Below, piece after piece: positions 4,884 to 64,000 of a stretch of 64,000 nt of DNA. Origin of the DNA: Acidimicrobiales bacterium (GTDB taxonomy: Bacteria; Actinomycetota; Acidimicrobiia; Acidimicrobiales; Aldehydirespiratoraceae); the NCBI GenBank assembly GCA_965116965.1, contig OZ220743.1, positions 3,958,628-4,022,627 of the forward strand, in the 5' to 3' direction. Every line of letters begins with the position of its first letter. Positions within the stretch are counted from its first letter, which is position 1. The notes under the pieces were generated by a model. The model was not told the DNA's origin. It worked only from the letters and a program-made list of their open reading frames with translations, and made no database searches. The translations under genes were made by a program, and so were the position numbers.

Positions 4884-6230
4884 GTGACCGGAGCCGTCTG
4901 CGACCTGCGCAGCTACATGGCGGTCGCCGAGGCCGCCGGGATGCTCAACCGCATATCGCGCCCCGTGAGCCTCGAGCACGAGCTGGCCGATGTGGCCGCC
5001 GCGCTGGAGCGCTCCGGCGCGGGGCCGGCGCTGTTCGAGGCGCCCAAGGACTCGCCGTGGCCGATCTTCTCGGGCGCGGTCAGCAGCCGGCGCACCGCCG
5101 CGCTGGCCCTGGGCTGCGAGCCCGACGAGGTGGTGGACCGCATGGGCCGCGCCCTGGAGCCGGCCAACGGGGTGGCCGCCGCCCGGGTCGGCTCGGCAGC
5201 CTGGCACGACGACTGCCTCACCGGCGACGACGTGGACCTGGCCGCCATACCGGTACCCACGCACTCGCGGGGCGACGGCGGCGCCTTCATCACCGGCGCG
5301 GTGAGCGTGACCAAGGACCCGATCAGCGGGCGGGGGAACCTGTCGTACAACCGGATGCTGATGCTGGACCGCAACGTCCTGGGCTTCAACGTCAACGAGT
5401 GGCGCGACGTGGGCACGTTCATGCGCAGCCGGCCCGACCCCGGCGCGCCCTTCGACGTGGCCCTGGCCATCGGCCTCGACCCGGCGGTGATGATCGCGGC
5501 CGGGGTGCGCACGCCGGTCGACGAGCTGCTGATCGCGGGCGCCCTGCGGGGCCGGCCGGTGGAGGTGTGCCGGGGCCGCACCGTCGACGTCGACGTGCCC
5601 GCGCATGCCGAGGTGGTGATCGAGGGCCGGATCCGTCCCGACCAGCGGGCCGACGAGGGGCCGCTGGCCGAGTTCCACGGCTACCACGGCGAGATGTGGC
5701 CCAGCCCCACCGTGGAAGTGACGGCCATCTCCTGGCGCCACAGCCCCATCTACCAGACGATCATCCCGGGGTGGTACGAGCACGTGTTCATCGGCAACGT
5801 GCTGCCCCGCGAGCCCCTGCTGCGCCGCTTCGTGCGCCACATCGACCCCGGCGCCGATGTGTACATCCCGCCCTACGGCAACGGCTTCCTGGCCGTGATC
5901 CAGATCGACCGCGACAACCCGGGCACGCCCAAGAACCTGGCCATGGCGGCCATGGCGGCCCACATCAACATCCGCAACGTGATCGTGGTTGACCGCGACG
6001 TCGACGTCAGCCAGCCCTCCGAGCTGCACTGGGCCCTCACCAACCGGGTCCACTGGCTCGACGACGTGTTCACCACCGGCCACGCCCAGGGCCATGAGAT
6101 GGATCCCACCGCCGACAACCGGGGCGTCGGCACCAAGGTGGGCATCGACGCCACCTACAAGCGGGAGCGCCGCGAGTACGGCGAGCGGGTGGCCTACGCG
6201 CCGGTTGATCTTGGGAAGTACCTGTCATGA
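4884..6230 (+). CDS. UbiD-family (prenyl-FMN-dependent) decarboxylase
   Basis: The 448-aa ORF starts with GTG. Its N-terminus, DLRSYMAVAEAAGMLNRISRPVSLEHELADV, and its overall length match UbiD-like decarboxylases. It is followed directly by the ubiX partner gene. Confidence 0.8.
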   Translation: MTGAVCDLRSYMAVAEAAGMLNRISRPVSLEHELADVAAALERSGAGPALFEAPKDSPWPIFSGAVSSRRTAALALGCEPDEVVDRMGRALEPANGVAAARVGSAAWHDDCLTGDDVDLAAIPVPTHSRGDGGAFITGAVSVTKDPISGRGNLSYNRMLMLDRNVLGFNVNEWRDVGTFMRSRPDPGAPFDVALAIGLDPAVMIAAGVRTPVDELLIAGALRGRPVEVCRGRTVDVDVPAHAEVVIEGRIRPDQRADEGPLAEFHGYHGEMWPSPTVEVTAISWRHSPIYQTIIPGWYEHVFIGNVLPREPLLRRFVRHIDPGADVYIPPYGNGFLAVIQIDRDNPGTPKNLAMAAMAAHINIRNVIVVDRDVDVSQPSELHWALTNRVHWLDDVFTTGHAQGHEMDPTADNRGVGTKVGIDATYKRERREYGERVAYAPVDLGKYLS

Positions 6231-7432: not shown

Positions 7433-9049
7433 TCAGGCCAGGCTGCGAAGGACGGCGTTGGCGGTGTTGCGGCCGGATGACCCCCAGATTCCAGACCCCG
7501 GATAGGTACCCGCGCCCGACAGGAACAGTCCGGGCACCGGCGCCCGGTACCGGCTCAGCTCGCGGCGCCGACCGAACAGCGACGACAGTGGGGAGCCCGC
7601 GTACGACGGCGTGTATCCCCGGGCCAGGTAGAACTCGCGCTCGTAGCGGTCGGGGGTCATGGTCCGGTAGCGGTCCACCGACTCGAGGAATCCGGGCTGC
7701 AGCAGGCCCGACCACACCTTCAGCCACCGGGCCGGCTCGGGCGAGTCGGCCCAGCCGCCCTCTATGTCATAGGGGGTGAACAGCGCCTCCAGGCTGAGCA
7801 CGTGGAGTCCGTCGCCACTGCGCATCGTCGGGTCCAGCACCGACGGCACGTTGGCCATCATGGTGGGCCGCTCAGCCACCCGGCCCAGGCTCCGCAGCCG
7901 GTGGGCGTCGGCCAACTCAGCCGCGGTGGGTGAGATGACGACGTTCGACTGGGCCGGATCGCGTCCTTCGAACAGATCGAGCAGAGCCGAATCCTCCAGA
8001 GCCGGGTATCGAGGGAGGTCGGTGATGACGGCGTCGATCTTGGACTGGTAGCCGTCGGTTGGGGTCTGCGATCGGGCCCGAGCGACGAAGCGGCGAGCCC
8101 CGCCGGTGGGCTCGGCGAGCCACCGCGACGCCACCGAGGCCGGATCGACAGCGGTCACCACCGCGGCCGCAGTGACTTCGGCGCCGTCGGCCAAGCGCAC
8201 GCCCTGCACGCCCCGGCCGTCGCCGAGCAAACCGGTCACCGCCGTGCCGCATCTCAAGACGCCTCCGGCCGCGGTGAACGAGGCGGCCAGCGCGTCGGTG
8301 AGCGCGCCGCTGCCGCCCACCGGGCGGCCCGTCTTGACCATGTGGCGCATGGCATAGGACGCGCCGGCCAGACCGGTGCCGGGTCTGTCTCCTGGAGCGC
8401 CCCAGACTGTGGGGCCGTTGGAAATGGCCGGCATGACCAGGGCTTCGTCATCGAAATAGGACCTCAGCACGTCCAGCGCGCCGGCCCGGCTCCACTGCAG
8501 CAGCCGGGCTCCGCCGCGGGCTCGGCGGGCGGCCAGCCGTGCCAGCATCCGTGGCGTGGACGCCGGCCCGGTGCCCATCTCCAGGATGAGTTCGGCGACC
8601 GGTCTGGCGTCGGCCAGATATCGGCGGTAGGCGGTGGCTTGCGCGGGCCGGTGGCGCCCGATGGACTCGATGGTGCGCTCGCTGTCGTTGAAGAACAGCC
8701 ACGGCGGGCTGCCGTCGTAGCCCATGTAGACGGTGGTCGGGTCGGCTTCCAGGTATCGCAACCCGTGGGCGGCCAGGTCCAGGTCGTCCATGAAGGGCAT
8801 GGCCCGCACCAGGGTGTGGTCGCAGCTGCAGATGTTGAAGCGGGCGTCCAGGTCGCTGACCGTGGAGGCGCAGCCCCCCACTTCGTCGCGGGCCTCCACC
8901 AGCAGGGTGTCCACTCCGGCCCGGGCCAGGTAGGCCGCGCAGATGAGGCCGTTGTGGCCGCCGCCCACCACCACGACGTCGGCGTCGCCGACGGTTCCGG
9001 TGCGGCTGGACCCGGCGCCGACCTCCGGAGCGACACCGGCGGCGGTCAT
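7433..9049 (-). CDS. NAD(P)/FAD-dependent oxidoreductase (phytoene desaturase/CrtI-like family)
   Basis: The start is taken at the internal ATG at 9049, giving MTAAGV...DADVVVVGGGHNGLICAAYLARAGVDTLLVEARDEVGGC, a Rossmann GxGxxG dinucleotide-binding N-terminus. This ATG overlaps the upstream yqeC stop as ATGA. The longer track ORF (to 9391) would overlap yqeC. Confidence 0.8.
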   Translation of the reverse strand: MTAAGVAPEVGAGSSRTGTVGDADVVVVGGGHNGLICAAYLARAGVDTLLVEARDEVGGCASTVSDLDARFNICSCDHTLVRAMPFMDDLDLAAHGLRYLEADPTTVYMGYDGSPPWLFFNDSERTIESIGRHRPAQATAYRRYLADARPVAELILEMGTGPASTPRMLARLAARRARGGARLLQWSRAGALDVLRSYFDDEALVMPAISNGPTVWGAPGDRPGTGLAGASYAMRHMVKTGRPVGGSGALTDALAASFTAAGGVLRCGTAVTGLLGDGRGVQGVRLADGAEVTAAAVVTAVDPASVASRWLAEPTGGARRFVARARSQTPTDGYQSKIDAVITDLPRYPALEDSALLDLFEGRDPAQSNVVISPTAAELADAHRLRSLGRVAERPTMMANVPSVLDPTMRSGDGLHVLSLEALFTPYDIEGGWADSPEPARWLKVWSGLLQPGFLESVDRYRTMTPDRYEREFYLARGYTPSYAGSPLSSLFGRRRELSRYRAPVPGLFLSGAGTYPGSGIWGSSGRNTANAVLRSLA

Positions 9050-13300: not shown

Positions 13301-15009
13301 GTGACGCTGATGATGCGGTCAGCTGGCTAGTGTCGGACGAGCGCAATCTCATGCTGGGATCGGGCGGCGTCTCGAAGTCAGCGGCACGCGAGCTGATCGA
13401 GCAATGCTCGCCCGGATGCCCTTCCGGCCTGTTCGACGCGCTGGAGGCCGCGATACTCGACCACTGGCCGATCTGGGAGACAGACGCATCTCGCGGCCAT
13501 TCGCAATACGAACTGCTCGCAGCGCTGGACTCCACGAGACTGTCCCCAACAGCACGGCGAAGGCTCCACGAACTGGAGAACCGGTTCCCGGACTGGCCAC
13601 CGCAACCAGCGGAGCCGGCCGTTTGGTCCGGGGCTGTGGGGTCACCGATCGACGGCGACGAGTCCGTGAACATGTCCGACGACGACTGGATCGCCGCCCT
13701 GCAGCGATACATCGACGAAGAACCGCGGTGGGACGGCGACCGCGTCGTCGGCGGCGCACACCAGCTAGCCAGCATGCTCGGCGAACAAGCCAAGGGCGAC
13801 CCTGCGCGCTTCTCGCGAATCGCGCTCCGCTTCGACGCAGACATTCCCGATGCCGCGATGAACGCAGTCATCCGCAGCGTCGAGAGCCACATCGGGGTCG
13901 AGGCCCTGACCGACCTTTGCGAGCACGCCTACAGCGTCTACGGCTCAAGGGTCGGGCGGGCCGTGTGCAGCGCGATCGGTCGTGCCGATGCTGTGAACCC
14001 GCGCCTGGTGGCACTACTCACCGCCTACGCCAGCGACGCCGACCCCGAGCGCGAGGAAGCCCGAACCGAAGCGTTCACTGGCGACTATCTCTACGGCGGC
14101 GACTTCCTCACAGCGGGGTTGAACTCGACGCGGGGACAAGCAGCCCTCTCAGCCGCCGCGCTGCTGTTCAGATCAGCCGACCACCTCAACGCTCTGATGC
14201 CCACAGTGGACGCCCTCACGCAAGACGACATAGTCGCGGTGCGAGTCTGCGCCGCCGAAGCGGTCACCGCCTTGTTGAACCATGCAGCCGCACAGGCGCT
14301 GGATCTGGCTGAGCGCATGCTTAACGCCGACATCGAAGTCCTCGATGCGCAAACCAGCGAGAGACTCCTTACTCATGCTGTGCTGCGCGACCCCGACCGA
14401 TTCGCCGCAACACTGGCCGAAGCCATCGCAGGACCAGAAGACATTGCGGTGCGGGGCGGGCGGATCTGGGCGGTGACGCGCTGGAGCGGACGACTACCCG
14501 CCGGACTCGACACCGACGTGTGTGCCCTGCCGGCAGCGGCCCGCCGTGGTGCCGTCGAGGCATTCGCGTCCAACGTTGCGGACAGCCTCGAGGACCTGCG
14601 CCGCGTGTTCGACGACGACGATCCCGAGGTTCAGGCGAACCTCGGGATAGCGATTCACAGACTCGACAATGTCTCGGCATCCGAGATGGAAGGCCTGATC
14701 AGTGCTCTCACAACGAGCAGTGCATTCCCCCGACACATGGACAGCCTCATGTACGCGCTTGAGCAGCTGCCTGCCGAGATGCCGGCCAACGCCGTCACCG
14801 CATGCGAGCGCGTCGTCGAGATCACCGGAGCTGACCTCGTAGACCCATCCAAGGCCAGCGCGCTCACCGGTCTCCACATGGTCACCGTGGTGCTGCGCCT
14901 ATACCGACAGGGAGACCAAGAAACCAGAGTCCGCTGCCTGAACATCATCGACCGGCTCGCAGAGTTCAACCTGTACGACCTAGAACGGGCGCTCGACGAC
15001 GAGAGATGA
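10387..15009 (+). CDS. Giant nuclease / NACHT-like P-loop NTPase / HEAT-like repeat protein (Avs/bNACHT-like)
   Basis: The ORF is 1540 aa from a GTG start; an alternative ATG at 10645 gives MIAQTAYRYERLW.... It has a PD-(D/E)xK-like module (...VDWVLEADGDVWVEEVKYR), a Walker A motif (VVVEGRAGSGKST) and a NACHT-style Walker B motif (ALLVVDQLDAV). About 950 aa of helical repeats follow. Confidence 0.75.
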   Translation: MSFGSNSVLVVPELSTLESTVLGAVISAVVGALIPPLRRWVVGIVRLCVDRSRGLYRRARSRGHDAPVARPSLREPIGEAARPQQSMIAQTAYRYERLWSMSRVLDLLDGKVRWIRWEPPGASGVAVDWVLEADGDVWVEEVKYRSRGWTISELDERRVLAVAKGQIDQGRRFRLLTASGAAKLETLADCARRSESFADYEALLTGGLRADLERVAACWSVSPESAWSVLQDIEVEHEPVRSLERFIEMRLRIRYADRAESVWEALERFYMAHIHEHLTAQQVLEHLESEGLRQLPRTGDTGVSRRLRQSRRRHQEHVKQFEPPGGLAPTGDVDAVVGMLRDPDGKQIVVVEGRAGSGKSTVAAAAAAALAESGWHVAAVRMDVAETLLTSDALGRAMELTESPSVLLAVVSDGQPALLVVDQLDAVSLHSGRVPDSFDAVNEVLLEIEHYPNLKVLLACRTVDLERDQRLGSLRTGERVGRHAVGELDIETVRTHLAACGIDAPGSSPTMELLRIPLHLSLFIRLSDEGRARPYVTLQQLYDRYTQEARSRVARNVGSLDWDQTAGAIVDYMSREGMLAAPAAVLYGASPQQAEALVSESVIVRHGAVVTFFHESYFDYLFAVSFVGAGRDLRAFLVDSDQGLFRRAQTRQVLEHLAATDRKRFISVVVELLEGEDIRFHLKVVVVGVLRQIEPVPGHWAALEHLAWSGSPLGVRLLRLLCNPGWFDAADSLGRWDAWLEDPQRAETAHDELAIVAKHRPARVAELIRPRLEDSEQWRHCLQRIMWLSLCSELVDLIADAITMGLFDDADRPTGGLGFWMNLHRFKDDDPAGAARLIGVFLDRGLERAKLAGSDDPFKSGHLRSDSQSESEIADVARKAPAEFIRHVLPFVIEVAGADLHYPDGGLPVGRWHSRLSLVHGVDNVVFAATEKALLALAEQDPAQCADALPPLRSAEIFELRYLACRALANMGDADDAVSWLVSDERNLMLGSGGVSKSAARELIEQCSPGCPSGLFDALEAAILDHWPIWETDASRGHSQYELLAALDSTRLSPTARRRLHELENRFPDWPPQPAEPAVWSGAVGSPIDGDESVNMSDDDWIAALQRYIDEEPRWDGDRVVGGAHQLASMLGEQAKGDPARFSRIALRFDADIPDAAMNAVIRSVESHIGVEALTDLCEHAYSVYGSRVGRAVCSAIGRADAVNPRLVALLTAYASDADPEREEARTEAFTGDYLYGGDFLTAGLNSTRGQAALSAAALLFRSADHLNALMPTVDALTQDDIVAVRVCAAEAVTALLNHAAAQALDLAERMLNADIEVLDAQTSERLLTHAVLRDPDRFAATLAEAIAGPEDIAVRGGRIWAVTRWSGRLPAGLDTDVCALPAAARRGAVEAFASNVADSLEDLRRVFDDDDPEVQANLGIAIHRLDNVSASEMEGLISALTTSSAFPRHMDSLMYALEQLPAEMPANAVTACERVVEITGADLVDPSKASALTGLHMVTVVLRLYRQGDQETRVRCLNIIDRLAEFNLYDLERALDDER

Positions 15010-15591
15010 GGCCGAAGACACCTGCCTCGTCCCGCGAAAAGGGATCCGCCCGAGCCGTGGTCCGTACGCACCTGGTGTGCCCTGGGGTCTCACGCGGTGA
15101 GCTTGGTTGATTCCGGGCATCGGTGATGGCGTGACGGAGTTCGAGCGTCGCCGGGTGTTGCATGGAGTTCAGGTGGGTGCGATGTGTTGTGCCCAGGTTT
15201 CCATCAGTGGCCTGCGGCGCTCGCGCATGTCGGATCTGGCTTAGGCGGCTTCGGTGCGGTCTCTGACGGCGTGGCCGAGTGCTGTCTCGGCGAAGTCCCG
15301 GGGAACTGCGGTGTCGCTGCCGGGGGCACTCTCTTCGATCAAAAAATAGCGTTTGAACTGGTCTTATACTTCATTCTCAGAGTTGGTTACCACTCAAGCT
15401 ATTCACAATGCGGGCCGCGGGTTGGCACGCTGACGGTGCTTGTTCGCTCATCTGAGCCGCGCGGCGAAACTCCGAGGGCGCATGAAGAGAATCGACGCTA
15501 CGGAGCTTGTGAAGCTAACCCCGGCCTGGCAGCAGCGCTGACGGGCTGGGAGCCGCTAGAAGTGATCAGGCACACACCGGGGGCTAGAGCG

Positions 15592-16077
15592 ATGTCATCA
15601 ACCCACACGCTGACGCTGCCAGGCGCCATGATCGAACGCGGATTCTGGCTCTATGTGTGGAGGATCGCATCGCCCATCGGCGAATTGCTGTACGTGGGAC
15701 GCACCGGGGACAGTTCGTCGACAAACGCGGCAACTCCATTCGCGCGCATGGGTCAGCACCTCGGCACTAACTACCGCCAGAACCCCGTGCGACGCCACTT
15801 GGAACGTCGCCTGGTCCCTCCAGAGACGTGCACGGCGTTTGATCTGATCGCCCACGGTCCGATCTTCGAGGAGGCACAGGACTGGGCAACGCACCAGAAA
15901 CGTCGAGATGTCGTTGCCGTTCTAGAGAAGGCTCTCGCCGACGCCTTGACACGTTTGGGATACGACGTACTCAACGAGGTCAAGGATCAGCACGACTTGG
16001 ATGTTCGTCTCTGGGCGAAGGTCCGCGAGGAGTTCGCTGCTTACTTCCCACGATTGGGCGAGACCCGTGAGGAATAG
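15592..16077 (+). CDS. Small hypothetical protein, possible GIY-YIG-like nuclease fold
   Basis: This is an internal ATG at 15592, preceded by GGGGG, within track ORF 15184..16077. The segment ...GFWLYVWRIASPIGELLYVGRTGDSSS...FARMGQHLG... fits the spacing of the GIY-(about 10 aa)-YIG...R...H pattern only loosely. Confidence 0.4.
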   Translation: MSSTHTLTLPGAMIERGFWLYVWRIASPIGELLYVGRTGDSSSTNAATPFARMGQHLGTNYRQNPVRRHLERRLVPPETCTAFDLIAHGPIFEEAQDWATHQKRRDVVAVLEKALADALTRLGYDVLNEVKDQHDLDVRLWAKVREEFAAYFPRLGETREE

Positions 16078-53398: not shown

Positions 53399-53592
53399 GG
53401 GGCAGGACGGCAACCGGGGGTGGTATCGCCCCCGAGATCGCTGCGATGATGCTGTCCGCGGTGCGCTCTGAGATTCCCGCCGTGGTGGTGGACGGCGATT
53501 CCACGCGGCATGGCCCTACGTGTGGGCTCTTCGGGGTCGCGACGCAGCCGAGACCGGGTGGCCGACACTGGTTTGGTGTTCGCTGTGGTTGG

Positions 53593-54961
53593 CTATGTGT
53601 GTGTCACGTCGATGTCGGCGCCGAGCTGTGTGAACTTGTCCAGGACGCTGTCGTAGCCGCGTTCGAGGTGGTGCACCCCTGACCGCAGGCTGTCGCCTGT
53701 GGCTGTCACCGCGGCGACGGCGAGCCCGAACCCGGCGCGGATGTCTTCCATGACGACTTCGGTGCCGTGGATCTCAGTCGGTCCGGCCACCAGCGCGGAG
53801 TGGCGGTGCCGGCCGGCGCCGAACCGGCAGCCGTTGGCGCCGAGGCAGCCGTTGAAGAGCTGGACGGTGGCGCCCATGTTGTTGAGCTGCTGGGTGCAGC
53901 CGAGACGGTCCTCGAAGACCGTCTCATACACCGCCGACACGCCGTTGGCTCAGGTGAGCGCGGCGGCCAGAGGCGGCTGCCAGTCGGTGGCGAACCCCGG
54001 GTAGGGGCCCGTGGAGATTCGCGATCGGATCGAGGCCTGTGGGGGCTTCTGCTTCGATGCGGCCGTCGGCGTCGATGGTGACCGTCGCTGCGAGGCGTCG
54101 CATCAGCGCGATCGCAGGCGACACGCGGCTCGGGTCACAGCCAACGACCGCGACCTTGCCTTGGGTCGCGTTCGCGGCCGCGAGGTAGGAGAACGCTTCG
54201 ACGCGGTGGCCTGCGATGTGCTGGCGGCTGGGCTGGAGGCGTTGCACGCCGTCTATGACGTAGCGCCCGTCCCTCGGCGGGTTCGATGATGGCGCCCATG
54301 GGTTGCAGGAACTGGATCAGCTCCTGTATCTCGGGCTCGACCGCGGCGTTGTGCAACACGGTGCGGCCCTCAGCTCTCACCGCGGCCAACAGCACCGTCT
54401 CGGTGGCTCCGACGCTGGGATACGGCAGCGTGACGTCGGCGCCGTGCGGCTCTCCCTGTGCGCTGATGCCGTCGCTGTCCACCGTCACGTGCGCGCCCGT
54501 CGCGGTGAGCGCGTCGCGATGGAAGTCCACGGGCCGCAGCCCGATCCCGTCGCCGCCCGCCACAGGCACCCGGGCCTCCCCGAAGCGGTGCAACAGCACC
54601 GGCAGACACAGAATCGGCATGCAGGCTCACCAGCGTCGATGCGTCCACCACCCCACGGCCCGACCCGACCGCCACGCCCGCGCCGACGGCCGCGAGCACG
54701 GCTGCGGTCACGCGGCACATCAGCGCCGGCGGGCACGTTGTCGAACTCGCAGACGCCGTCGGTCAGGCACGCCGCGATCATCAGCTTCGTGACGGCGTTC
54801 CTAGCGCCCGCAACGACAACAGTCCCCGCCAGCGAGACGCTGGAGCGCGCATACCAGATGCGGTCCCGTGTCGCCGCGAACTCCTCGACCAGCGCCGACT
54901 CCAACCCCCGAGAACCCTCCTCGGAGCCACCCGCAGCGGGGGCGGCGCGACGGCGGGCCAA
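53593..54961 (-). pseudogene. murA-like (UDP-GlcNAc 1-carboxyvinyltransferase / EPSP-synthase fold) gene broken by multiple frameshifts
   Basis: MurA-like segments appear in order but in different frames. They are ...LAGTVVVAGARNAVTKLMIAACLTDGVCEFDNVPAGADV (54961 frame), ...VTAAVLAAVGAGV..VVDASTL, and ...LLHRFGEARVPVAGGDGIGLRPVDFH...SVGATETVLLAAVRAEGRTVLHNAAVEPEIQELIQFL (54620 frame). These are followed by ...HRVEAFSYLAAANATQGKVAVVG (54247 frame) and ...EDRLGCTQQLNNMGATV...HHLERGYDSVLDKFTQLGADI (53940 frame). Confidence 0.7.
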
Positions 54962-55958: not shown

Positions 55959-56674
55959 TGTATGCGGTCAGCGCAGAGCCTCGAACCACTCCCACGAAAC
56001 TGAGGGGCCCCGACACCATCGTGGGGACGACCTCGGCGGCCGCCGCCCGCTCTGAGTCTCAGCGAAGACGCTGACCTCCGCGTTTCCCAATCCGCGCCGC
56101 CCCCTTACCCGGGCCTGCGGCACGAGCAGCGGGCCGCTCCCCTATACGAACAGAGCACCGGTTCGGATCGCTCCACTGGGCTCCCGAAACTCGGCTCCGA
56201 TTATGCGCTGGCCGGGTTCGCTCGGTTCGGGAGCGGATCCCTCCCATGGCTCGGATCAGCTTCCGACCAAACCTCGGGGACAGACCCCCAAGTCGCCTCG
56301 ATCCGGTCAGTCTGCTCGGGGTCGGCGCTATCTGAGATCGGGTGGTTCGCAGTGGCTCGGGTCGGGCCCGACGAGCAAGAAACATCAAGCCCCATAGGGC
56401 TCGACGCGTCCAGGCCGGCCAGCTTGCACCCGGATCGGATCAGCTGAACTCGGTGCCTCGGACGGTTCACACCACGGTTCGGATCTGTGTCAGATCCGCT
56501 CGCGTCATGCAGGTGGCGTGCGCGGCTCAGGCCCGGACCCTGACCGGACCCTCGGTCCGGCGCAGGCCTTCGACCAACTCGGTCGCCCGCGTAAGAGCCC
56601 GGTCGAGTCGGCCCGGACGGCTCCCAGACCTCCCTCGACTCGATAACCCCGCGCTCAGGCTCGACGCGTGCTCC

Positions 56675-57110
56675 CCGGTCGGGTCGATCTCTCGCGTGGT
56701 CCCCCGGTGGGCTTCGCGTCGGCCCGGTCGGGTCGATCTCTCGCGTGGTCCCCCGGTGGGCTTCGCGTCGGCCCGGTCGGGTCGATCTCTCGCGTGGTCC
56801 CCCGGTGGGCTTCGCGTCGGCCCGGTCGGGTCGATCTCTCGCGTGGTCCCCCGGTGGGCTTCGCGTCGGCCCGGTCGGGTCGATCTCTCGCGTGGTCCCC
56901 CGGTGGGCTTCGCGTCGGCCCGGTCGGGTCGATCTCTCGCGTGGTCCCCCGGTGGGCTTCGCGTCGGCCCGGTCGGGTCGATCTCTCGCGTGGTCCCCCG
57001 GTGGGCTTCGCGTCGGCCCGGTCGGGTCGATCTCTCGCGTGGTCCCCCGGTGGGCTTCGCGTCGGCCCGGTCGGGTCAGTGTCCCGCGTGGTCCCCCGGT
57101 GGCCTGGCCC
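56675..57110. repeat. Tandem array, 49-bp unit x8 identical plus 1 degenerate copy
   Basis: The unit is CCGGTCGGGTCGATCTCTCGCGTGGTCCCCCGGTGGGCTTCGCGTCGGC. Units start at 56675 and recur every 49 bp to 57066, and a diverged ninth copy follows. The period is not a multiple of 3. Confidence 0.95.
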
Positions 57111-57339: not shown

Positions 57340-58470
57340 TATCGGCCCGGCTCCGGGTCCTGTCGGCTCCCGGCCCGCTCCCGGTCCGGCTCCGGGCTCC
57401 GGGTCCTGTCGGCTTCCGGCCCGCTCCCGGTCCGGCTCCCGGCTCCGGCTCCTGTCGGCTCCCGGCCCGCTCCCGGTCCGGCTCTCGGCTCCGGGTCCTG
57501 TCGGCTCCCGGCCCGCTCCCGGTCCGGCTCCCGGCTCCGGCTCCTGTCGGCTCCCGGCCCGCTCCCGGTCCGGCTCCCGGCTCCGGCTCCTGTCGGCTCC
57601 CGGCCCGCTCCCGGTCCGGCTCCCGGCTCCGGCTCCTGTCGGCTCCCGGCCCGCTCCCGGTCCGGCTCTCGGCTCCGGCTCCTGTCGGCTCCCGGCCCGC
57701 TCCCGGTCCGGCTCCCGGCTCCGGCTCCTGTCGGCTCCCGGCCCGCTCCCGGTCCGGCTCTCGGCTCCGGGTTCTGTCGGCTTCCGGCCCGCTCCCGGTC
57801 CGGCTCCCGGCTCCGGCTCCGGGCTCCGGGCTCTGTCGGCTCCCGGCCCGCTCCCGGTCCGGCTCCCGGCTCCGGCTCCTGTCGGCTCCCGGCCCGCTCC
57901 CGGTCCGGCTCCCGGCTCCGGGTCCTGTCGGCTTCCGGCCCGCTCCCGGTCCGGCTCTCGGCTCCGGCTCCGGGCTCCGGGCTCTGTCGGCTCCCGGCCC
58001 GCTCCCGGTCCGGCTCCCGGCTCCGGCTCCTGTCGGCTCCCGGCCCGCTCCCGGTCCGGCTCCCGGCTCCGGGTCCTGTCGGCTCCCGGCCCGGCTCCCG
58101 GTCCGGCTCTCGGCTCCGGCTCCTGTCGGCTCCCGGCCCGCTCCCGGTCCGGCTCCCGGCTCCGGGTCCTGTCGGCTCCCGGCCCGCTCCCGGTCCGGCT
58201 CTCGGCTCCGGGTCCTGTCGGCTCCCGGCCCGCTCCCGGTCCGGCTCTCGGCTCCGGGTCCTGTCGGCTCCCGGCCCGCTCCCGGTCCGGCTCCGGGCTC
58301 CGGGCTCCGGGCTCCGGCTCTCGGCTCCGGGTCCTGTCGGCTCCCGGCCCGCTCCCGGTCCGGCTCACGACGGTCCGGCTCTCGGCTCCGGGTCCTGTCG
58401 GCTCCCGGCCCGTCACCCCGGCCCGCTCCCCGGTCCGGCTCTCGGCTCCCGGCCCGGCTCACGACGGTCC
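57340..58470. repeat. Tandem array, about 46-bp unit, roughly two dozen imperfect copies
   Basis: An example unit is CTGTCGGCTCCCGGCCCGCTCCCGGTCCGGCTCCCGGCTCCGGCTC. The period of 46 bp was measured at 57361 to 57407 and at 57541 to 57587. Units differ by point variants and small CCGGGCT insertions. All frames are open on both strands. Confidence 0.9.
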
Positions 58471-58665: not shown

Positions 58666-58935
58666 GGGGCGCTCCGCTGGGAGGGGGCGCTCCGCTGGGA
58701 GGGGGCGCTCCGCTGGGAGGGGGCGCTCCGCTGGGAGGGGGCGCTCCGCTGGGAGGGGGCGCTCCGCTGGGAGGGGGCGCTCCGCTGGGAGGGGGCGCTC
58801 CGCTGGGAGGGGGCGCTCCGCTGGGAGGGGGCGCTCCGCTGGGAGGGGGCGCTCCGCTGGGAGGGGGCGCTCCGCTGGGAGGGGGCGCTCCGCTGGGAGG
58901 GGGCGCTCCGCTGGGAGGGGGCGCTCCGCTGGGAG
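58666..58935. repeat. Tandem array, 18-bp unit GGGGCGCTCCGCTGGGAG x15 identical
   Basis: The array spans exactly 270 bp, which is 15 units by manual indexing. The plus-frame translation reads GALRWE fifteen times in track ORF 58606..59814. Confidence 0.95.
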
Positions 58936-59517
58936 GGGGCTTGCTGTGTGTGTCCCGGCCGGGATTGCTTGTCTTGGGCCAGGTTGCCGGGGATGGCTGC
59001 GGACCTGGAGCAGGGTCGACAGCGAGCCCGCCGGCCTGTGGGGCTGCGGGCAGGCTGCTTGTTGCTGGCTGCTTGCTGCTGGGGGGCGTCGCCGGTCGTT
59101 GCGTGGGGCTGTTGGTCGCGTCCCGGCCGTAGGGGCGTGTTGGGGCCAGGTTGCCGGGGACGGCTGCGGCCTGAGCAGGGTTCAGCGAGAGCCCGCGGCC
59201 GGTGTCGGCTGCGGGTGGCTCACTGGGGGCCTCGCGGCTCTGGAGGGGCCTTGGCCGCGACGGCTGGGCCAGGTTGCCGAGGACGGCTGCGGACCCGGAG
59301 CAGGGCGTGCCGCAGGGCCGGGCAGGGCTGCTCGGCATCTAGCAGGGTGCTGCGCGCTGTCCGCGGGCTGCTCTGTGCTGGCCGCAGGCTGCTGGAGGCT
59401 GGCGAAGCGGCCGGGCTCGTCGGCGCTGTTGCGCTGGTCGGGAGGGCGGGCCACCGAGCGCCTCGGGCTGCGGATCGGTGTGGTTCTCCGGTCCGGAGGC
59501 CTTGTGCGGGGGTGGGG

Positions 59518-60027
59518 TCACGGTTTGGCGCGCGCCCGTTTTGGTCTTTTATTCTGCGCAGCTTCGATTTCGGTGAGGTAGAACTCGAGGAGGGCGCTGA
59601 CGCTGGAGGAGACGGACCAGGCTCGTCTTTGGGCGATTCTTTGGAGTCTTCTGTGCTCGGTGTCGGTGAGTCCGACGACTATGACTTGGCGGCCTGGGAG
59701 GTCGTTGCGGGGGGTGTGGGCGATTTCGTCGGCGTAGCGTTCTGCGGCCATGACGATGAGGTCGGCTCGCTTCATGCCGCTTGCTTTGATGCAGGTGACG
59801 AGGTCGGGGTGTAGGCAGAAGGCTCGCTTCTTGCGTTTGGTGTTGCGTGGGTTCGGGGCGGTGGTCGGGGCGGTGTGTTGGCCGGAGAGGATCTCGCTGT
59901 GTCCGACGACGCGGCCTCGGCCTCCGCGGCCGCGTTCGCGGTGTTGGGGTGTGGCTGGGGTGTCTGCGGGTGGTGGGGGTGGGGGCGCGTTGGGGTCGGC
60001 GGGGTCAGGTGCGGGTGGTTTGGCCAT
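59518..60027 (-). CDS. Partition-type small DNA-binding protein (ribbon-helix-helix-like C-terminal half), downstream of parA
   Basis: The start is taken at the internal ATG at 60027, 12 bp after the parA-like stop. The N-terminus is Pro-rich and basic. The C-terminal half reads ...KRAFCLHPDLVTCIKASGMKRADLIVMAAERYADEI...TDTEHRRLQRIAQRRAWSVSSSVSALLEFYL. The call rests mainly on the gene's position and its beta-strand/helix pattern. Confidence 0.5.
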   Translation of the reverse strand: MAKPPAPDPADPNAPPPPPPADTPATPQHRERGRGGRGRVVGHSEILSGQHTAPTTAPNPRNTKRKKRAFCLHPDLVTCIKASGMKRADLIVMAAERYADEIAHTPRNDLPGRQVIVVGLTDTEHRRLQRIAQRRAWSVSSSVSALLEFYLTEIEAAQNKRPKRARAKP

Positions 60028-60038
60028 GGAGCCGGGGC

Positions 60039-60930
60039 TCAGCTGTCGCTGGCGATGCGTTCGATGTCGGCGATGCGGTCGTTGACCTCTTTGGCGAGCT
60101 CGCGGAACTCCGCTACAACGTCGGGCAGGTTGCGGGCGACGCTGATGCGTTCTGCGATCATGTCGCCTACGGATTTGGTGTCGGCGCGCTCGAGGTACTC
60201 GTGGATGAGTTTGCCTTGTTCGAGGGCGCCTCTTGTGGGCGTTGGGGCGTTGCGGATGATGGTGTGGAAGGGTCCGGCGGCTCCGCCGACGATGCGGCGG
60301 ACTTGTTCGTAGGCCTGGTAGCGCGAGCGGAGTGCTGCGGCTCCGATCTTGTGGAGGGGACGACGCCGAGCAGCACGATTTGGGAGTGTGAGGCTTCGAG
60401 GTCGTCTCTGTGGACTCTGAGGCCTCGAGGTCGTGTGGGTGATCGGTTGCGGCGACGATGAGGTAGGCGCCGACCTGTAGGGCGACGGTGGGGATCATGG
60501 AGGCTCCGCCGACAGTGGGAGGTCTATGACGATGCGGTCCTAGCGGCCGATGACCGCCTCGAAGGCGTCGGCGAACTCTTGTGGGGCCTAGGGCTCGGTT
60601 ACGAGGGCTTGGGCGAAACGGGTGATCTCGCGTCCGGCGACTACGACATCGAGTCGTTCTTTGGCTGCGACGACCTTGAGTGGGTCGCCTCAGGTGACTG
60701 CTTCTACGAAGTGTCGGCCGTGTCCGTGGCAGACGGGGCTGAAGCCCATTGCGAGGGTCGCGTTGGCTTGTGCGTCGGCGTCTACGAGCAGGACACGCAG
60801 GCCGTGTTCTGCGGCCCAGAGCCCTGAAAGTGCTGTCGCGAGGGCGGCCTTGCCTACGCCGCCTTTTCCGACCCCGACAACGAGGCTCTTGGGTATCCGC
60901 TCATCAGTGGTCCTCCATGGGGATCATGAC
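60039..60930 (-). pseudogene. parA-like Walker ATPase gene with lost start, in-frame stops and frameshifts
   Basis: The minus-strand reading is ...IPKSLVVGVGKGGVGKAALATALSGLWAAEHGLRVLLVDADAQANATLAMGF...VEAVT(TGA)GDPLKVV...VTEP(TAG)APQEFADAFEAVIGR(TAG)DRIVIDLP.... The frame then shifts to ...MIPTVALQVGAYLIVAATD... and shifts again to ...FHTIIRNAPTPTRGALEQGKLIHEYLE...EVNDRIADIERIASDS(stop at 60041-60039). There is no in-frame start upstream of the P-loop. Confidence 0.7.
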
Positions 60931-61114
60931 ACAGAATTATTGCCGTCTTATGCCGTTCCTATAACCCTCTTATTGCTTTTGATATAGGTTGGCGCGAAGT
61001 TGGCTATAAGAATGTCCTAGTTCGGCAATAGGACTCTTGGCTATAGCACATCTGTGGTTAATGTCCGTGTTCGGCGGGGAGGGGTCGCGCCGGGGGTCTG
61101 GGGCTGCCGCGGGG

Positions 61115-61242
61115 CGCGACATTGTCGCGACACAAGCGCGCGATAGCTGTGACATTTCCGCGACATCGCTGCGGTGCTCGGGGGTGTGACAACAGCGCGA
61201 CACAAGCGCGCGATAACTGTGACATTTCCGCGACATCGCTGC
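61115..61242. repeat. 15-bp palindrome (CGCGACATTGTCGCG) plus two copies of a 47-bp direct repeat, upstream of the parA remnant
   Basis: The palindrome is at 61115-61129. The repeat CGCGACACAAGCGCGCGATA(G/A)CTGTGACATTTCCGCGACATCGCTGC occurs at 61126-61172 and 61196-61242, with one mismatch and a 70-bp offset. Confidence 0.75.
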
Positions 61243-61534: not shown

Positions 61535-61960
61535 GGCTCGACACGGGCCGCCGTCGGCGGCTCGACGCGGCTGGGCGCCTCGACGCGGCCCGGTGTGGGC
61601 GGGCTGCGGGCTCGACGCGGCCGGGAGCTCGACGCGGCCGGGGAGCTCGACGCGGCCCGGTGTGGGCAGTCCGGCGGCGGGTTGGGGGCTCGACGCGACC
61701 CGGTGTGGGCGGCTCGACGCGGCCGGGAGCTCGACGCGGCCGGGAGCTCGACGCGACCCGGTGCTCGACGCGGCCGGGGAGCTCGACGCGGCCCGGTGTG
61801 GGCAGTCCGGCGGCGGGTTGGGGGCTCGACGCGACCCGGTGCTCGACGCGGCCGGGAGCTCGACGCGGCCCGGTGTGGGCGGTCCGGCGGCGGGTTGGGG
61901 GCTCGACGCGGCCCGGTGTGGGCGGGCTGCGGGCTCGACACTGCCCGGGCTCGACACGGC
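61535..61960. repeat. Dense array of about 18 (G)CTCGACGCGGCC-type boxes with a higher-order period of about 136 bp
   Basis: CTCGAC recurs at irregular 17-43 bp spacing from 61537 to 61950. The block CAGTCCGGCGGCGGGTTGGGGGCTCGACGCGACCCGGTG occurs at about 61667 and about 61803. Confidence 0.7.
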
Positions 61961-62337
61961 CGAGCGTCGGCGCCTCGGCGCCGGGTGTGGGCGCCTCAAG
62001 GGGTTTGACGCGGCTCGGGCTTGACGTGGCTGCGGGGCGGCGCGGCCGGTAGGGCTCGACGCAGCTGCGGGGCGGCGGATCGGCAACAAAGGCTCGTCCT
62101 CGCGGCGGGCGCGGTCTCGGCGCGGCGCGGGCTGGGCGCGGCCCGAGCGGGCGGATCAATCAGGAGCCCCGACGCGGGCCGAACGGGCCGGGGGCGGCTG
62201 CGGGTCCGGCCCGGCGAGGGGCTCCGCAACAGCCCCGTGCATCGCCGCTACGGCGCGCCGCTGCGAGGGCGCTGAGAGCGGCTCCGGCGACCCGCCGCGA
62301 GCGGCCCGCGGGCTGCAGCCAGCCAGCGGCGCCTACT

Positions 62338-62667
62338 TTGACGCGAAAATCCGAATCGGGGGTCCCGGGGAGCCGGAACTCGGGGCCGCCGATTTTCGCG
62401 TCGAGTGCTTCGATCAAAAAAGCCGGAGCCTCCAGAACTCGACGCGAAAATCCGAATCGGGGGTCCAGAACGATCAAAAAATCGGATTCGGGGCTCCGGA
62501 ATCGACGCGAAAATCGGTTTCGGGGCCTTCGCGGGCCTCCCGCCGGGCGCGGCGCGAGAGCCTCTCGCGATCGACGCGGAAATAGGTGCGGAGCCTCCGC
62601 GGGGCCTCCCATCGGTGCTCGCCGCGAGAGGCTTTTCCGATCGACGCGAAAATCATTTTCGCGTCGA
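62338..62667. repeat. Field of GACGCGAAAAT boxes in both orientations, ending in a 27-bp perfect palindrome
   Basis: Direct boxes are at 62340, 62441, 62504 and 62643, with the variant GACGCGGAAAT at 62573. Inverted boxes are at 62392-62402 and 62655-62665. The palindrome TCGACGCGAAAATCATTTTCGCGTCGA is at 62641-62667. The longer unit TCGACGCGAAAATCCGAATCGGGGGTCC occurs twice, and CGATCAAAAAA occurs twice. Confidence 0.85.
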
Positions 62668-64000
62668 TCGAAAAGGCCCTTCCACACCCGCGTCACCCAT
62701 GGGCACACGTCCACGAGCACCGGTGCGGCCCTGGGCATCGGAGGTGACGGTGAGCATCGGGGCTTGCGTTCGCGAGTGCGAGAAGTTGGTCAAGATCCCC
62801 GACCCCATCGAAAGGACATCCCCGACATCGGTCTGCAGGGGATCGCTGACTCGGCCCGGTACCGCCTCGGTGTGGTCAACGTGCTGGTTCGAAACGCGGG
62901 GGCGGCTTGGCCACGGCGTTGGCTCGCGGCCTCATCGAACAGGCCGCCTGTTGGGACTGGGCGCTCGCGACCGGTGCCGGTGTGGACCACCCCGACCAGT
63001 GGGCCACCGCCTCGAAGTCGACGGCCTGCCGAGAGCTGGCCCGAGATGCCGATGACGAGACCTGGCTCGCAATGGCTGCTCCCGACAGGTGTATCCGTCG
63101 CCTCGTCGGCGGGTCCCGCCCAACCCGACAACGCCGGCGACGCGGTTCGCCGTATCGGCCCAGGCCTGCACGGCGCGGGCTCAGCCCGCTCGGGTTCGCT
63201 GGGCTGACGTCGGCGTACCGGATCCTCGACGTGCCCGCCCACAGCCACCACCTCGGCGCAGTCATCTTGGCCGAGCAACTCGATCCGGAACTCCCGGACC
63301 GTCTCGCCGCGGTCGCCACCCAGCTGGGCGCCGCCGGTACGACGGCGGCGACGTTCGCTGTGGCCGATGACACCGTCACGTCGCGACGCGGCGACCACAC
63401 GGTTCGAGGTCGTGGCACCACAGGTGAGTGCGATCCACGGGGCTACCGGCCCAAAACATCACCTCCACAGCGCCGCCCGCCGCACTCCAGGCAGACGCGA
63501 CCGGTGACTGTTGCGTCATCGATCAGCCGCATGCCGCCGGCCACGCCTGACATGACCGAACTCGGACTGAAGTTCCTGCAGCCGTCGACGGCCTCACCCG
63601 CGTCGCGGCGTCCGCAGAGAGGTCGAGGCCGAAGACCTCTGTGCGTGGATCGCACATCACAGGCTTCCGGCTCTCACTGTCGAACCTGCCGATCATGCGC
63701 GGAGCGCTGGAAGGGACTCTCGGCAAAGCGCTGTTGCCGATCAGCGCCCGGATGCTCTATGGGGACGGCGCCCGATCGCACTGGCTCCCCCACAGCGCCA
63801 CCACCGCAACCAGGTGTGAGTCGCTGAAGGCGCTCGTCAACGACGGCGCGCAACGTCGAGATCGAATCGCCACCAGCCTGCAGTCCGACAGCGTCCCAAG
63901 ACCCATCATCGAGGAACTGCTCGGACCCGCCGTCAACACCCCACACTTCGACCCAGGAGAGCCGGGCCATGCCCACTCCGGGCGAGATGCTCCCACTCGC

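What the first reader, a model, noticed from the sequence alone, without database searches (positions are those of the whole stretch)
62338..62667. Field of GACGCGAAAAT boxes in both orientations ending in a 27-bp perfect palindrome
At least seven copies of an 11-bp box, five direct (one a variant) and two inverted, lie within 330 bp. They are interleaved with CGATCAAAAAA tracts and a twice-repeated 28-bp unit. The field ends with TCGACGCGAAAAT-C-ATTTTCGCGTCGA (62641-62667). Clustered short boxes, A-tracts and a strong hairpin are what one expects at an origin (oriV or oriT) or at a heavily regulated promoter. The region lies between the par remnant and an unresolved coding region. No relaxase or Rep gene is recognisable in the window.
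Basis: seen in the sequence. Interest (0 to 1): 0.55.

Follow-up and report, generated by a model that had tools for sequence, protein, structure and literature searches.

The report
Conserved protein-binding box array upstream of parA
A 330-bp stretch holding about ten copies of a 13-bp box is real, and four related environmental bacteria keep it almost unchanged at a fixed distance from a plasmid-type DNA-partition operon, so it is very likely a docking platform for a DNA-binding protein, although which protein binds it and for what purpose remains open.

Summary
GACGCGAAAAT (at most 1 mismatch) occurs 7 times, all within 62340-62665 and nowhere else in the window (0.79 expected). The full box is 13 bp, TCGACGCGAAAAT. 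Three weaker "B" boxes (TCGAYCRAAAAAT) lie among the seven.

The field lies about 1.45 kb upstream of a minus-strand partition operon. That operon is a decayed parA plus an intact protein with two ribbon-helix-helix (RHH) motifs in one chain, whose closest solved fold is F-plasmid TraY.

Four related metagenomic loci carry the same field. Box order, orientation, spacing and distance to parA are all kept. Box columns are 96% identical, spacers 56%, and synonymous sites of the neighbouring gene differ by 15-32%. In the window two spacings are longer by about 11 bp, roughly one helical turn.

My best reading (about 0.4) is a phased array of asymmetric protein-binding sites that builds a large DNA-protein complex belonging to the par module, that is, a centromere-like or accessory maintenance site.

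oriV and oriT are not supported by gene context: no Rep, relaxase, DnaA-box cluster or unwinding element within 10 kb in three loci. They are not excluded. The binding protein is unidentified. The boxes do not change along with the RHH protein's DNA-reading residues, whereas the repeats next to the parA promoter do.

The box, the field and the RHH family appear undescribed.

The parts
62338..62350 (+). A box, site 1 (TTGACGCGAAAAT). In L018 and L086 this site has an inverted A-box partner 14 bp away, and in L017 and L046 an inverted B-type partner. That partner is lost in the window.
62392..62404 (-). A box, site 2 (TCGACGCGAAAAT on the minus strand)
62410..62422 (+). B box 1, degenerate here (TCGATCAAAAAAG). 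It reads TCGACCGAAAAAT in all four relatives.
62439..62451 (+). A box, site 3
62471..62482 (+). B box 2, degenerate here (CGATCAAAAAAT). It reads CGGTCGAAAAAT or a close variant in relatives.
62502..62514 (+). A box, site 4
62571..62583 (+). A box, site 5, variant TCGACGCGGAAAT
62641..62667 (.). Inverted pair of A boxes (sites 6 and 7), the 27-bp perfect palindrome. The pair is conserved in all relatives with a 1-2 nt spacer.
62630..62678 (.). Window-specific extension of the palindrome (24-nt arms, 92% complementary). Homology with relatives stops at about 62667-62670, where relatives carry a third B box. About 4.2 kb of other DNA follows here.
61562..61911 (+). G+C-rich polar array: 15 copies of (G)CTCGACGCG(G/A)CC in 17-, 43- and 67-nt units, all in one orientation. 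It shares the TCGACGCG core with the A boxes. Relatives have 2-5 copies in the same orientation, in a zone that cannot be aligned but has the same total length.
60990..61242 (.). Repeats next to the parA promoter: two 70-nt units carrying ATGTCGCGGAAATGTCACAG (61111-61242) and CTATAGC-type boxes in the AT-rich promoter zone. They differ between lineages and are the better candidate for the operator or centromere of the RHH protein.
   Evidence: (D19)
60039..60904 (-). parA pseudogene (Walker-type ParA with no N-terminal HTH): 3 in-frame stops and at least 3 frameshifts, also present in the ENA copy of the contig
59518..60027 (-). Intact 169-aa protein with two RHH motifs in one chain and an N-terminal RGxGGRGR..EIL motif. 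It is the partner of ParA and the only DNA-binding protein encoded in the conserved block.
56674..57102 (-). Downstream array: 49-nt unit x 8.8, each unit carrying CCGACGCGAAGCC on the minus strand. The core is therefore inverted relative to the upstream array, so the operon is bracketed.

Best explanation
The field is a conserved, helically phased array of about ten asymmetric 13-bp protein-binding sites: seven A boxes (TCGACGCGAAAAT) and three weaker B boxes. Each box is probably bound by one protein unit. Together the bound units would form a large DNA-protein complex. The field belongs to the cis-acting region of a plasmid-type partition module (Walker-type ParA plus a single-chain tandem-RHH adaptor). 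It most likely acts as a centromere-like or accessory partition/maintenance site, together with the adjoining polar array that shares its TCGACGCG core. Shown: the boxes exist, are selectively conserved, keep their order, orientation, spacing and distance to parA in five sequences, and occur nowhere else in about 150 kb of related DNA. Inferred: that a protein binds them. Also inferred: that this protein is the adjacent TraY-like tandem-RHH protein. A pseudo-dimer in one chain would read an asymmetric site in either orientation, as TraY does. Also inferred: that the complex serves segregation.
For: (1) The boxes are far more frequent than chance and confined to the field. (2) Four related loci carry the same field: L017, L018, L086 and L046. 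A-box columns show 95.6% pairwise identity (82 of 91 invariant) against 56% in spacers. Per pair, 1-5.5% of box positions differ against 15-32% at synonymous sites of the neighbouring gene (P 1e-3 to 1e-10). (3) Site order and orientation are the same, and centre-to-centre spacings in the relatives are 14, 38-40, 18-20, 29, 32, 32, 57-59, 57-59, 14-15 and 19 bp. The window's two deviations are each about +11 bp, roughly one helical turn. (4) The field is 309 bp long in three relatives. It ends 1451-1495 bp before the ParA Walker-A codons in all four loci, although the G+C-rich zone in between cannot be aligned. (5) Spacer indels of 1, 2, 10 and 13 nt and flat codon-phase G+C rule out coding. 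There is no Rfam hit and no covariation support for an RNA structure. (6) The neighbouring operon is ParA plus a tandem-RHH protein (AF2 pLDDT above 90 in both RHH units). Its best PDB matches are F TraY chains (E = 2.6e-4). TraY is a monomeric pseudo-dimer that binds direct and inverted sites side by side (PMC12117103). (7) The RHH family keeps an N-terminal RGLGGRGR..EILA motif. In the one family member that includes upstream sequence (P0017) it is fused behind a ParA C-terminus. In all four loci with context it sits directly behind parA. (8) The TCGACGCG core is also repeated in one orientation between field and parA (15/0, 4/0, 5/1 and 2/1 copies) and inverted downstream of the operon. This resembles par loci bracketed by centromere repeats.
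Against: The field is not built like characterised type Ib centromeres, which are contiguous short repeats overlapping the par promoter (PMC3074162). It lies about 1.45 kb away with 14-70 bp between sites. The A boxes are invariant, yet the predicted DNA-facing residues of the second RHH strand differ (V/V/G in the window, T/V/R in L017 and L018, R/C/R in L086). The promoter-proximal repeats change in step with those residues (CTATAGC type against TGTCACAG type). This suggests the RHH protein reads the proximal repeats and something more conserved reads the field. parA is a pseudogene in the window while the boxes are still nearly perfect, so the function may not need ParA. No binding data exist. 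All relatives are metagenomic contigs of unknown replicon type.
Confidence: 0.4

Rival explanations
1. Iterons or a copy-control array of a replication origin (oriV). Initiator monomers would bind the single boxes and dimers the inverted pairs, with the initiator encoded elsewhere on the replicon.
For: The field has direct repeats plus inverted copies of the same box, with spacing kept in phase with the DNA helix. The boxes stay invariant although the partition protein's specificity changes, and they persist although parA has decayed. This fits a site read by a different, conserved protein. Origins commonly lie next to par loci (general plasmid biology, own knowledge). After the parA promoter, the field holds the most AT-rich spots of the locus.
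Against: No Rep-like gene lies within about 10 kb on either side in L016, L017 or L018, whereas iterons are almost always adjacent to rep. There is no DnaA-box cluster and no AT-rich stretch beyond the boxes themselves; the lowest 40-mer G+C in the field is 0.38-0.45. Neighbouring genes (aroA, lipoprotein, RCC1, MoxR/VWA) look chromosomal. There is no clear GC-skew switch.
Confidence: 0.2
2. Operator or architectural array for an unlinked, conserved host DNA-binding protein. It would silence or regulate transcription across the 2.6-kb leader of the par operon, or drive an unannotated RNA.
For: The boxes are invariant although the local RHH protein diverges fast (dN/dS 0.4-1.0). The boxes are conserved although parA has decayed. 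A conserved distance to the promoter could reflect DNA looping.
Against: No A box occurs outside the field in about 150 kb of related sequence: the window, L014, L015, L017 and L018. This argues against a regulon-wide factor. No sigma-70-like promoter is in the field, and no Rfam family matches. Ten sites over 310 bp is far more than ordinary operators need.
Confidence: 0.2
3. An oriT-like relaxosome assembly site. TraY-like monomers would bind the boxes, and the ParA-like ATPase would act like VirC1 with VirC2 to recruit a distant relaxase.
For: The best structural matches of the RHH protein are TraY chains of the F relaxosome, followed weakly by VirC2. TraY binds direct and inverted sites in a train (PMC12117103). 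The field ends in a strong hairpin-forming inverted repeat. From own knowledge, not tested here: VirC1 is ParA-like and works with the RHH protein VirC2 at overdrive.
Against: No relaxase, coupling protein, T4SS or TraB lies in the 64-kb window or in the 20-kb loci. There is no conserved non-repeat candidate nick sequence. The fold match reflects only the shared tandem-RHH architecture (16% identity). The conserved N-terminal RGLGGRGR motif and the tight parA linkage look like a partition adaptor.
Confidence: 0.07
4. Functionless decaying minisatellite, or arm-type sites of a recombinase (attP-like) left over from an integrated element.
For: The region is full of tandem repeats. In the window, homology with relatives breaks exactly at the field's distal edge, next to inserted DNA. 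L017 has two integrase genes and an ISL3 transposase 1.5-5.8 kb away.
Against: Box-specific purifying selection and fixed architecture across five sequences exclude neutrality. Integrases are absent from L016 and L018 and from the 4.6-kb contig L086, where only ORFs were listed.
Confidence: 0.05

Closest known systems
Type Ib plasmid partition loci (ParF/ParG-parH of TP228, delta/omega of pSM19035, ParA/ParB of pCXC100)
   Same: A Walker-type ParA without an N-terminal HTH, followed by a small RHH protein with a flexible, arginine-rich N-terminal tail. Repeated DNA boxes in direct and inverted orientation lie upstream of parA (definition in PMC3074162).
   Different: The RHH protein is a tandem RHH in one chain rather than a homodimer. 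The field lies about 1.45 kb from the promoter rather than overlapping it. Boxes are 13 bp with 14-70 bp between them rather than contiguous 4-9-bp repeats. The boxes do not co-vary with the RHH protein's reading residues, whereas the promoter-proximal repeats do.
F-plasmid TraY at oriT (sbyA) in the relaxosome
   Same: A single-chain tandem-RHH fold (Foldseek E = 2.6e-4, TM about 0.6 on the target). Monomers bind asymmetric sites arranged as direct and inverted repeats and bend the DNA (PMC12117103).
   Different: Only 16% sequence identity. The partner here is a ParA, not a relaxase, and no transfer genes are nearby. TraY sites are three adjacent sites of about 10 bp each, not ten sites spread over 310 bp.
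Iteron arrays of theta plasmids (P1 oriR/incA, F ori2/incC, pPS10), from own knowledge
   Same: One box used both as direct repeats and as inverted repeats. Spacing is kept in register with the helix. The arrays lie next to partition genes.
   Different: No adjacent rep gene, DnaA boxes or unwinding element. Spacing is 3-6 helical turns rather than about 2.
F sopC and pB171 parC1/parC2 centromeres, from own knowledge
   Same: Many protein-binding repeats separated by whole numbers of helical turns (sopC has 12 units of 43 bp). In pB171, repeat arrays lie on both sides of the par operon, as the TCGACGCG-core arrays do here.
   Different: sopC is read by an HTH ParB and lies downstream of the operon. 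The pB171 repeats are contiguous 6-bp units. No sequence similarity.

Membership tests
Type Ib partition centromere (parH/parS-like) | Lies upstream of an operon encoding a small Walker-type ParA (no HTH) followed by an RHH centromere-binding protein | tested here: met
   parA runs 60904 to 60039 (pseudogene) and the RHH gene 60027 to 59518, with the field upstream. The same order holds in L017, L018 and L086.
Type Ib partition centromere (parH/parS-like) | Contiguous short repeats overlapping or adjoining the par promoter, so that the binding protein also autoregulates | tested here: not met
   The field ends 1451-1495 bp before the Walker-A codons. Boxes are separated by 14-70 bp. Other repeats occupy the promoter zone.
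Type Ib partition centromere (parH/parS-like) | The site co-varies with the DNA-reading residues of its cognate binding protein | tested here: not met
   The A boxes are invariant while beta-2 residues 115, 117 and 119 differ among lineages and the proximal repeats change. Only four loci, and which residues face the DNA was inferred from sequence pattern.
Type Ib partition centromere (parH/parS-like) | Bound by the cognate protein and required in cis for stable inheritance | not testable with these tools
   Needs EMSA or footprinting and plasmid-stability assays.
Iteron-type origin of replication (oriV) | Adjacent gene for the initiator (Rep) that binds the iterons | tested here: not met
   No Rep-like Pfam hit in the window ORFs scanned or in the genes called within 10 kb in L016, L017 and L018. 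Several ORFs have unknown function.
Iteron-type origin of replication (oriV) | AT-rich unwinding element and/or DnaA boxes next to the iterons | tested here: not met
   There are only isolated one-mismatch DnaA-box matches (two in the window, one in L017, none in L018 or L086), none inside the field. The lowest 40-mer G+C in the field is 0.38-0.45 and falls within the boxes themselves.
Iteron-type origin of replication (oriV) | Supports autonomous replication | not testable with these tools
   Needs a replication assay.
Origin of transfer (oriT) | Linked relaxase or transfer genes and a nick site next to an inverted repeat | tested here: not met
   No relaxase, T4SS or TraB in the window or loci. 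An inverted repeat is present, but no conserved unique sequence stands out as a nick candidate.
Origin of transfer (oriT) | An RHH accessory protein of the TraY/VirC2 type binds beside the nick site | tested here: inconclusive
   The adjacent protein has the TraY-like tandem-RHH fold, but its binding site is unknown.
Structured non-coding RNA | Conserved secondary structure with compensatory changes, or a match to a known family | tested here: not met
   No Rfam match at E up to 1. The RNAalifold covariation term is +6, and the box-box helices never vary.

The most novel reading that the evidence does not exclude
The field and the polar TCGACGCG-core arrays that bracket the operon are together a new kind of composite centromere. 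A single-chain, TraY-like tandem-RHH adaptor would bind as monomers to asymmetric 13-bp sites held in helical register and hand the complex to a ParA. This would be a partition system that merges the DNA-reading logic of relaxosome accessory proteins with type I segregation, in an uncultured high-G+C lineage. Alternatively, the field is the origin of an undescribed actinobacterial replicon family whose initiator is unknown.
Probability: 0.25. Interest if true: 0.6.

Novelty: new variant of a known kind. Interest (0 to 1): 0.5.

Why it matters
Multi-site DNA platforms next to par operons decide how low-copy replicons are inherited and which replicons can coexist. Here a 310-bp platform is preserved box by box at a fixed distance from parA, while everything around it turns over. 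That includes the partition protein's own reading head and, in this window, parA itself. Such a pattern points to a binding partner and a function that current par, rep and transfer models do not name. Its neighbour is a rare single-chain double-RHH protein: only 26 cluster representatives among 1.84 billion proteins. Its nearest solved relative is the conjugation protein TraY. The locus therefore offers a compact, testable case, with one protein and one 13-bp site, for how monomeric RHH pseudo-dimers build ordered complexes on asymmetric sites. It may also give a handle on replicon maintenance in an uncultured lineage.

Tried and rejected
1. Close DNA matches of 60.5-64 kb in PLSDB plasmids and INPHARED phages: none. 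A distant blastn of the L086 par region against plasmids also found nothing.
2. A genome-contig scan for GACGCGAAAAT-N0-30-ATTTTCGCGTC gave 11 hits, all isolated hairpins in unrelated taxa with two boxes only. I treat these as chance or terminator hairpins.
3. Two viral-contig scans found nothing relevant.
4. The metagenome scan for two boxes 40-68 nt apart gave 78 loci, of which only L086 and L046 are true relatives. The rest are coding tandem repeats with periods of 21, 33 or 66 nt, and one CRISPR-like array, L068.
5. Five exact-protein look-ups failed because the window differs from the ENA record in homopolymer lengths or because of my choice of start codon. I reached the contig beyond the window through homology searches instead.
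6. The gene downstream of the field (the 263-aa family, P0001-P0005) is not linked to the field. Homology with its relatives starts only at 63385, and those loci have no boxes.
7. The conserved upstream neighbour (257 or 385 aa) is a secreted lipoprotein, not a DNA-binding protein or Rep.
8. A Zur-box-like reading of the palindrome centre (GAAAATCATTTTC, from memory) was rejected. The spacer between the two boxes varies by 1-2 nt and the centre is not conserved in relatives.
9. A Streptomyces clt/TraB-type reading of the polar 8-mer array (from memory) was not pursued, because no TraB is present.
10. A literature search for the box sequence gave only coincidental primer matches.
11. The 192-aa ORF over the field (62160-62738, minus strand) is spurious, given flat codon-phase G+C and spacer indels that are not multiples of three.

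Full report
**1. The observation**

The 11-mer GACGCGAAAAT (at most one mismatch) occurs seven times in the 64-kb window. All seven lie between 62340 and 62665, five on the + strand and two on the - strand. Shuffles give 0.79 on average and never more than 4. The 27-bp palindrome at 62641-62667 is exact and continues imperfectly to 62630-62678. As single-stranded DNA it folds at -23.8 kcal/mol, z = -7.4.

The 26-nt unit repeated at 62340 and 62441 and the CGATCAAAAAA tracts are also present.

- The conserved unit is 13 bp, TCGACGCGAAAAT.
- The TCGACGCG core recurs 15 more times, all on the + strand, in a very G+C-rich repeat zone at 61562-61911.
- A related core (CCGACGCGAAGCC) sits in each unit of a 49-nt tandem array at 56674-57102, on the opposite strand.

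**2. Surroundings**

The window comes from a 216-kb long-read metagenomic contig, ENA ERZ25072196 ctg193596_5x_l. It differs from the stored copy only in a few homopolymer lengths and two substitutions.

Codon-phase G+C is flat over 56.4-59.5 kb and 60.9-62.9 kb, so these stretches are non-coding and full of tandem repeats. Between them, on the minus strand, lies a partition operon.
- The parA gene (60904 to 60039) has the Walker-A motif at its very start and no N-terminal HTH. It carries three in-frame stops and at least three frameshifts.
- An intact 169-aa gene follows at 60027 to 59518.

ParA's nearest annotated relatives are ParA proteins of actinobacterial plasmids, at 30-35% identity.

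The 169-aa protein has no Pfam or NCBIfam match. AlphaFold2 models it with pLDDT above 90 as two consecutive ribbon-helix-helix units in one chain. Its best matches among solved structures are the TraY chains of the F-plasmid relaxosome (E = 2.6e-4), followed weakly by VirC2. TraY is described as a monomer holding a whole RHH dimer fold in one polypeptide. It binds direct and inverted sites side by side (PMC12117103).

The family is rare: 26 cluster representatives with E of 1e-3 or better among 1.84 billion proteins. Members share an N-terminal RGLGGRGR..EILA motif. One representative (P0017) is fused behind a ParA C-terminus. Arginine-rich flexible tails that stimulate the ParA partner are typical of type Ib centromere-binding proteins (PMC3074162).

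The rest of the window looks like a chromosomal or megaplasmid defence island. It holds a type I restriction-modification system, UvrD, an SMC-like ATPase, two giant STAND NTPases, MoxR/VWA genes and an aroA fragment. Beyond the window end lie a gene of a 263-aa family of unknown function, AbiEi/AbiEii, a lipoprotein gene and an RCC1/fn3 protein. No Rep, relaxase or TraB is present.

**3. Relatives**

Homologues of the RHH protein (55-65% identical to the window's) led to two long contigs from another sample, L017 and L018. Both have the same gene order as the window: AAA/MoxR, DUF2201, aroA, repeat-rich DNA, the RHH gene, parA, and a long non-coding leader.

A pattern scan of JGI metagenomes found two more sequences.
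- L086 is a short-read contig with an intact 273-aa ParA and the RHH gene.
- L046 contains the field only.

All four carry the field, and several properties are shared.
- In the orientation of parA the sites read: inverted pair, three boxes on one strand, one box on the other strand, then a final box or a second inverted pair.
- Three B boxes (TCGACCGAAAAAT or CGGTCGAAAAAT) are conserved as well.
- Centre-to-centre distances in the four relatives are 14, 38-40, 18-20, 29, 32, 32, 57-59, 57-59, 14-15 and 19 bp.
- The field is 309 bp long in three of them and ends 1451-1495 bp before the ParA Walker-A codons in all four loci.
- This distance holds although the G+C-rich zone in between cannot be aligned even among the relatives.

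The window's field departs in four ways. It is 21 bp longer, because two spacings are 69 and 70 bp instead of 57-59, each about one helical turn more. It has lost the partner of site 1. Both of its B boxes have mutated. Homology ends at about 62667, where about 4.2 kb of other DNA follows.

**4. Selection**

In the five-way alignment, A-box columns have 95.6% mean pairwise identity (82 of 91 invariant). B boxes have 79% and spacers 56%.

Per pair, 1-5.5% of box positions differ and 14-46% of ungapped spacer positions differ. Synonymous sites of the neighbouring RHH gene differ by 15-32%. The probability of so few box differences at the synonymous rate is 1e-3 to 1e-10.

Spacer indels of 1, 2, 10 and 13 nt exclude a coding reading. 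No Rfam family matches. RNAalifold gives a positive covariation term, which is a penalty, and the box-box helices never vary.

The full box occurs nowhere else in the window or in L014, L015, L017 or L018. The field is therefore a set of DNA sites under strong constraint, dedicated to this locus.

**5. What it most likely does**

These are the marks of an ordered DNA-protein assembly site:
- an asymmetric 13-bp box used singly in both orientations;
- inverted pairs whose spacer varies by 1-2 nt, so each box is an independent unit rather than half of a rigid dimer site;
- spacings of about 1.3, 1.8, 3, 3.7 and 5.5 turns that change only by a whole turn;
- a fixed distance to parA.

The only DNA-binding protein in the conserved block is the tandem-RHH protein. 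A pseudo-dimer in one chain is the kind of reader that fits an asymmetric site in either orientation, as TraY shows. The same core also forms polar arrays on both sides of the operon in inverted orientation. This recalls par loci bracketed by centromere repeats.

I therefore rank first, at about 0.4, a centromere-like or accessory maintenance site of this par module.

There are real objections.
- Characterised type Ib centromeres are contiguous short repeats at the promoter (PMC3074162). This field is 1.45 kb away and its sites are spaced out.
- The predicted DNA-facing residues of the second RHH strand differ among lineages: V/V/G, T/V/R and R/C/R.
- The repeats next to the parA promoter change with those residues. 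They are CTATAGC-type in the window, L017 and L018, and TGTCACAG-type in L086. The A boxes stay the same.
- parA is dead in the window, yet the boxes are almost intact.

These points favour a different, conserved reader. That is why an origin or iteron array with an unlinked initiator (0.2) and a host-factor operator or architectural array (0.2) remain serious rivals. An oriT-like site (0.07) survives mainly through the TraY-like fold. A neutral repeat or recombinase arm-site remnant (0.05) is largely excluded by the selection data.

Against an origin:
- no Rep within 10 kb in three loci;
- no DnaA-box cluster, no parS and no unwinding element;
- no clear GC-skew switch.

**6. Comparison with known systems and novelty**

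The locus works most like a type Ib partition module, but the field fails two defining features of a type Ib centromere: contiguity at the promoter and co-variation with the binding protein. It also fails the gene-context features of oriV and oriT.

The box sequence is absent from the searchable literature. The field has no counterpart in PLSDB, in the phage collection, or in the GTDB representative genomes when scanned for a pair of inverted boxes. The partner protein belongs to a small, unannotated family.

I rate it a new variant of a known kind, namely repeat-box cis sites of replicon-maintenance modules, with an unidentified reader.

**7. Limits**

All evidence is comparative and comes from five metagenomic sequences of one narrow lineage. 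Replicon type is unknown. Which RHH residues face the DNA was inferred from sequence pattern, not from coordinates. Long-read homopolymer errors affect gene integrity calls in L017 and L018, where the parA frameshifts there may be artefacts. In L018 the shift falls at a run of five G where four would restore the frame. The stops in the window's parA are substitutions and are present in both versions of the contig.

Noticed in passing
window 59518-60027 (-); P0006-P0035: The ParA partner has two RHH motifs in a single chain and its best fold match is F TraY. It belongs to a very small family (26 representatives among 1.84 billion proteins) with no Pfam or NCBIfam model and a conserved N-terminal RGLGGRGR..EILA motif. 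A tandem-RHH partner for a ParA is unusual.
   Followed up: partly
window 60039-60904 (-): parA is a pseudogene with three in-frame stops (TGA, TAG, TAG, where relatives have W, E and Y) and at least three frameshifts. The downstream RHH gene is intact. The stops are also present in the ENA copy of the contig.
   Followed up: yes
window 56674-57102, 57346-58366, 58666-58940: Three large tandem arrays lie downstream of the operon: 49 nt x 8.8 at 98% identity, 46 nt x 22, and 18 nt x 15.3 at 100% identity. They are non-coding by codon-phase G+C, yet gene callers read them as 759-1211-aa ORFs. Repeats of the same types occur at the equivalent place in L017, L018 and L086.
   Followed up: partly
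window 61111-61242; L086 about 2030-2420; L017 about 8830-8950: Units next to the parA promoter contain ATGTCGCGGAAATGTCACAG. L086 has GTCACAGCGATGTCACAG, that is, GTCACA direct repeats 11 nt apart. From memory this resembles the MtrA-type response-regulator site GTCACAgcg. This is a lead only and was not tested.
   Followed up: no
window 61562-61911 versus 56715-57058; L018 8014-8363 versus 13705-15848: The CGACGCG core is strongly polar: all copies upstream of the operon lie on one strand and all downstream copies on the other. The par operon is thus bracketed by inverted arrays, an arrangement conserved in L018.
   Followed up: partly
window 53587-54903: aroA (EPSP synthase) is broken into fragments of 161 and 115 aa, whereas L017 and L018 have intact genes of 442 and 461 aa at the same place. 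Together with parA this suggests that this copy of the locus is decaying.
   Followed up: partly
window 63385-64000 and beyond (L016 about 5730-6060): A gene of a 263-aa family of unknown function (P0001-P0005, 66-85% identical) starts near 63505 with a frameshift near 63600. Its relatives lie in unrelated contexts (next to IS110, a reverse transcriptase, restriction-enzyme-like genes), so it looks like a mobile cassette. AbiEi/AbiEii follow beyond the window end.
   Followed up: partly
window 52713 and 58886 versus L002/L016: The window and the ENA record of the same contig differ by single-base homopolymer lengths (C5 against C4, G5 against G6) and two C/T substitutions (59957, 60276). These are two polishing versions of a 5x long-read assembly, so isolated frameshifts in this window should be treated with caution.
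   Followed up: yes
window 10387-45664: A dense defence-type gene set: two giant STAND/NACHT-like NTPases (1540 and 2178 aa), a ThiF-like protein, an SMC/AAA_23 ATPase with a sigma-70-like gene, UvrD, a YgjP-like peptidase and a complete type I restriction-modification system (hsdR, hsdS, hsdM).
   Followed up: no
L017 6153-6731; L018 6964-7089: Remnants of the C-terminal part of a UvrA-like ABC ATPase lie just distal to the field in two relatives. The distal flank of the field differs in every locus (lipoprotein gene, ISL3 plus two integrases, AbiE cassette), so it seems to be an insertion hot spot.
   Followed up: no
L068 2670-3965: One metagenome hit is a CRISPR-like array: 19 identical repeats containing TCGACGCGAAAAG at a 70-75-nt period. 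It is unrelated to the field and matched the search pattern by coincidence.
   Followed up: no
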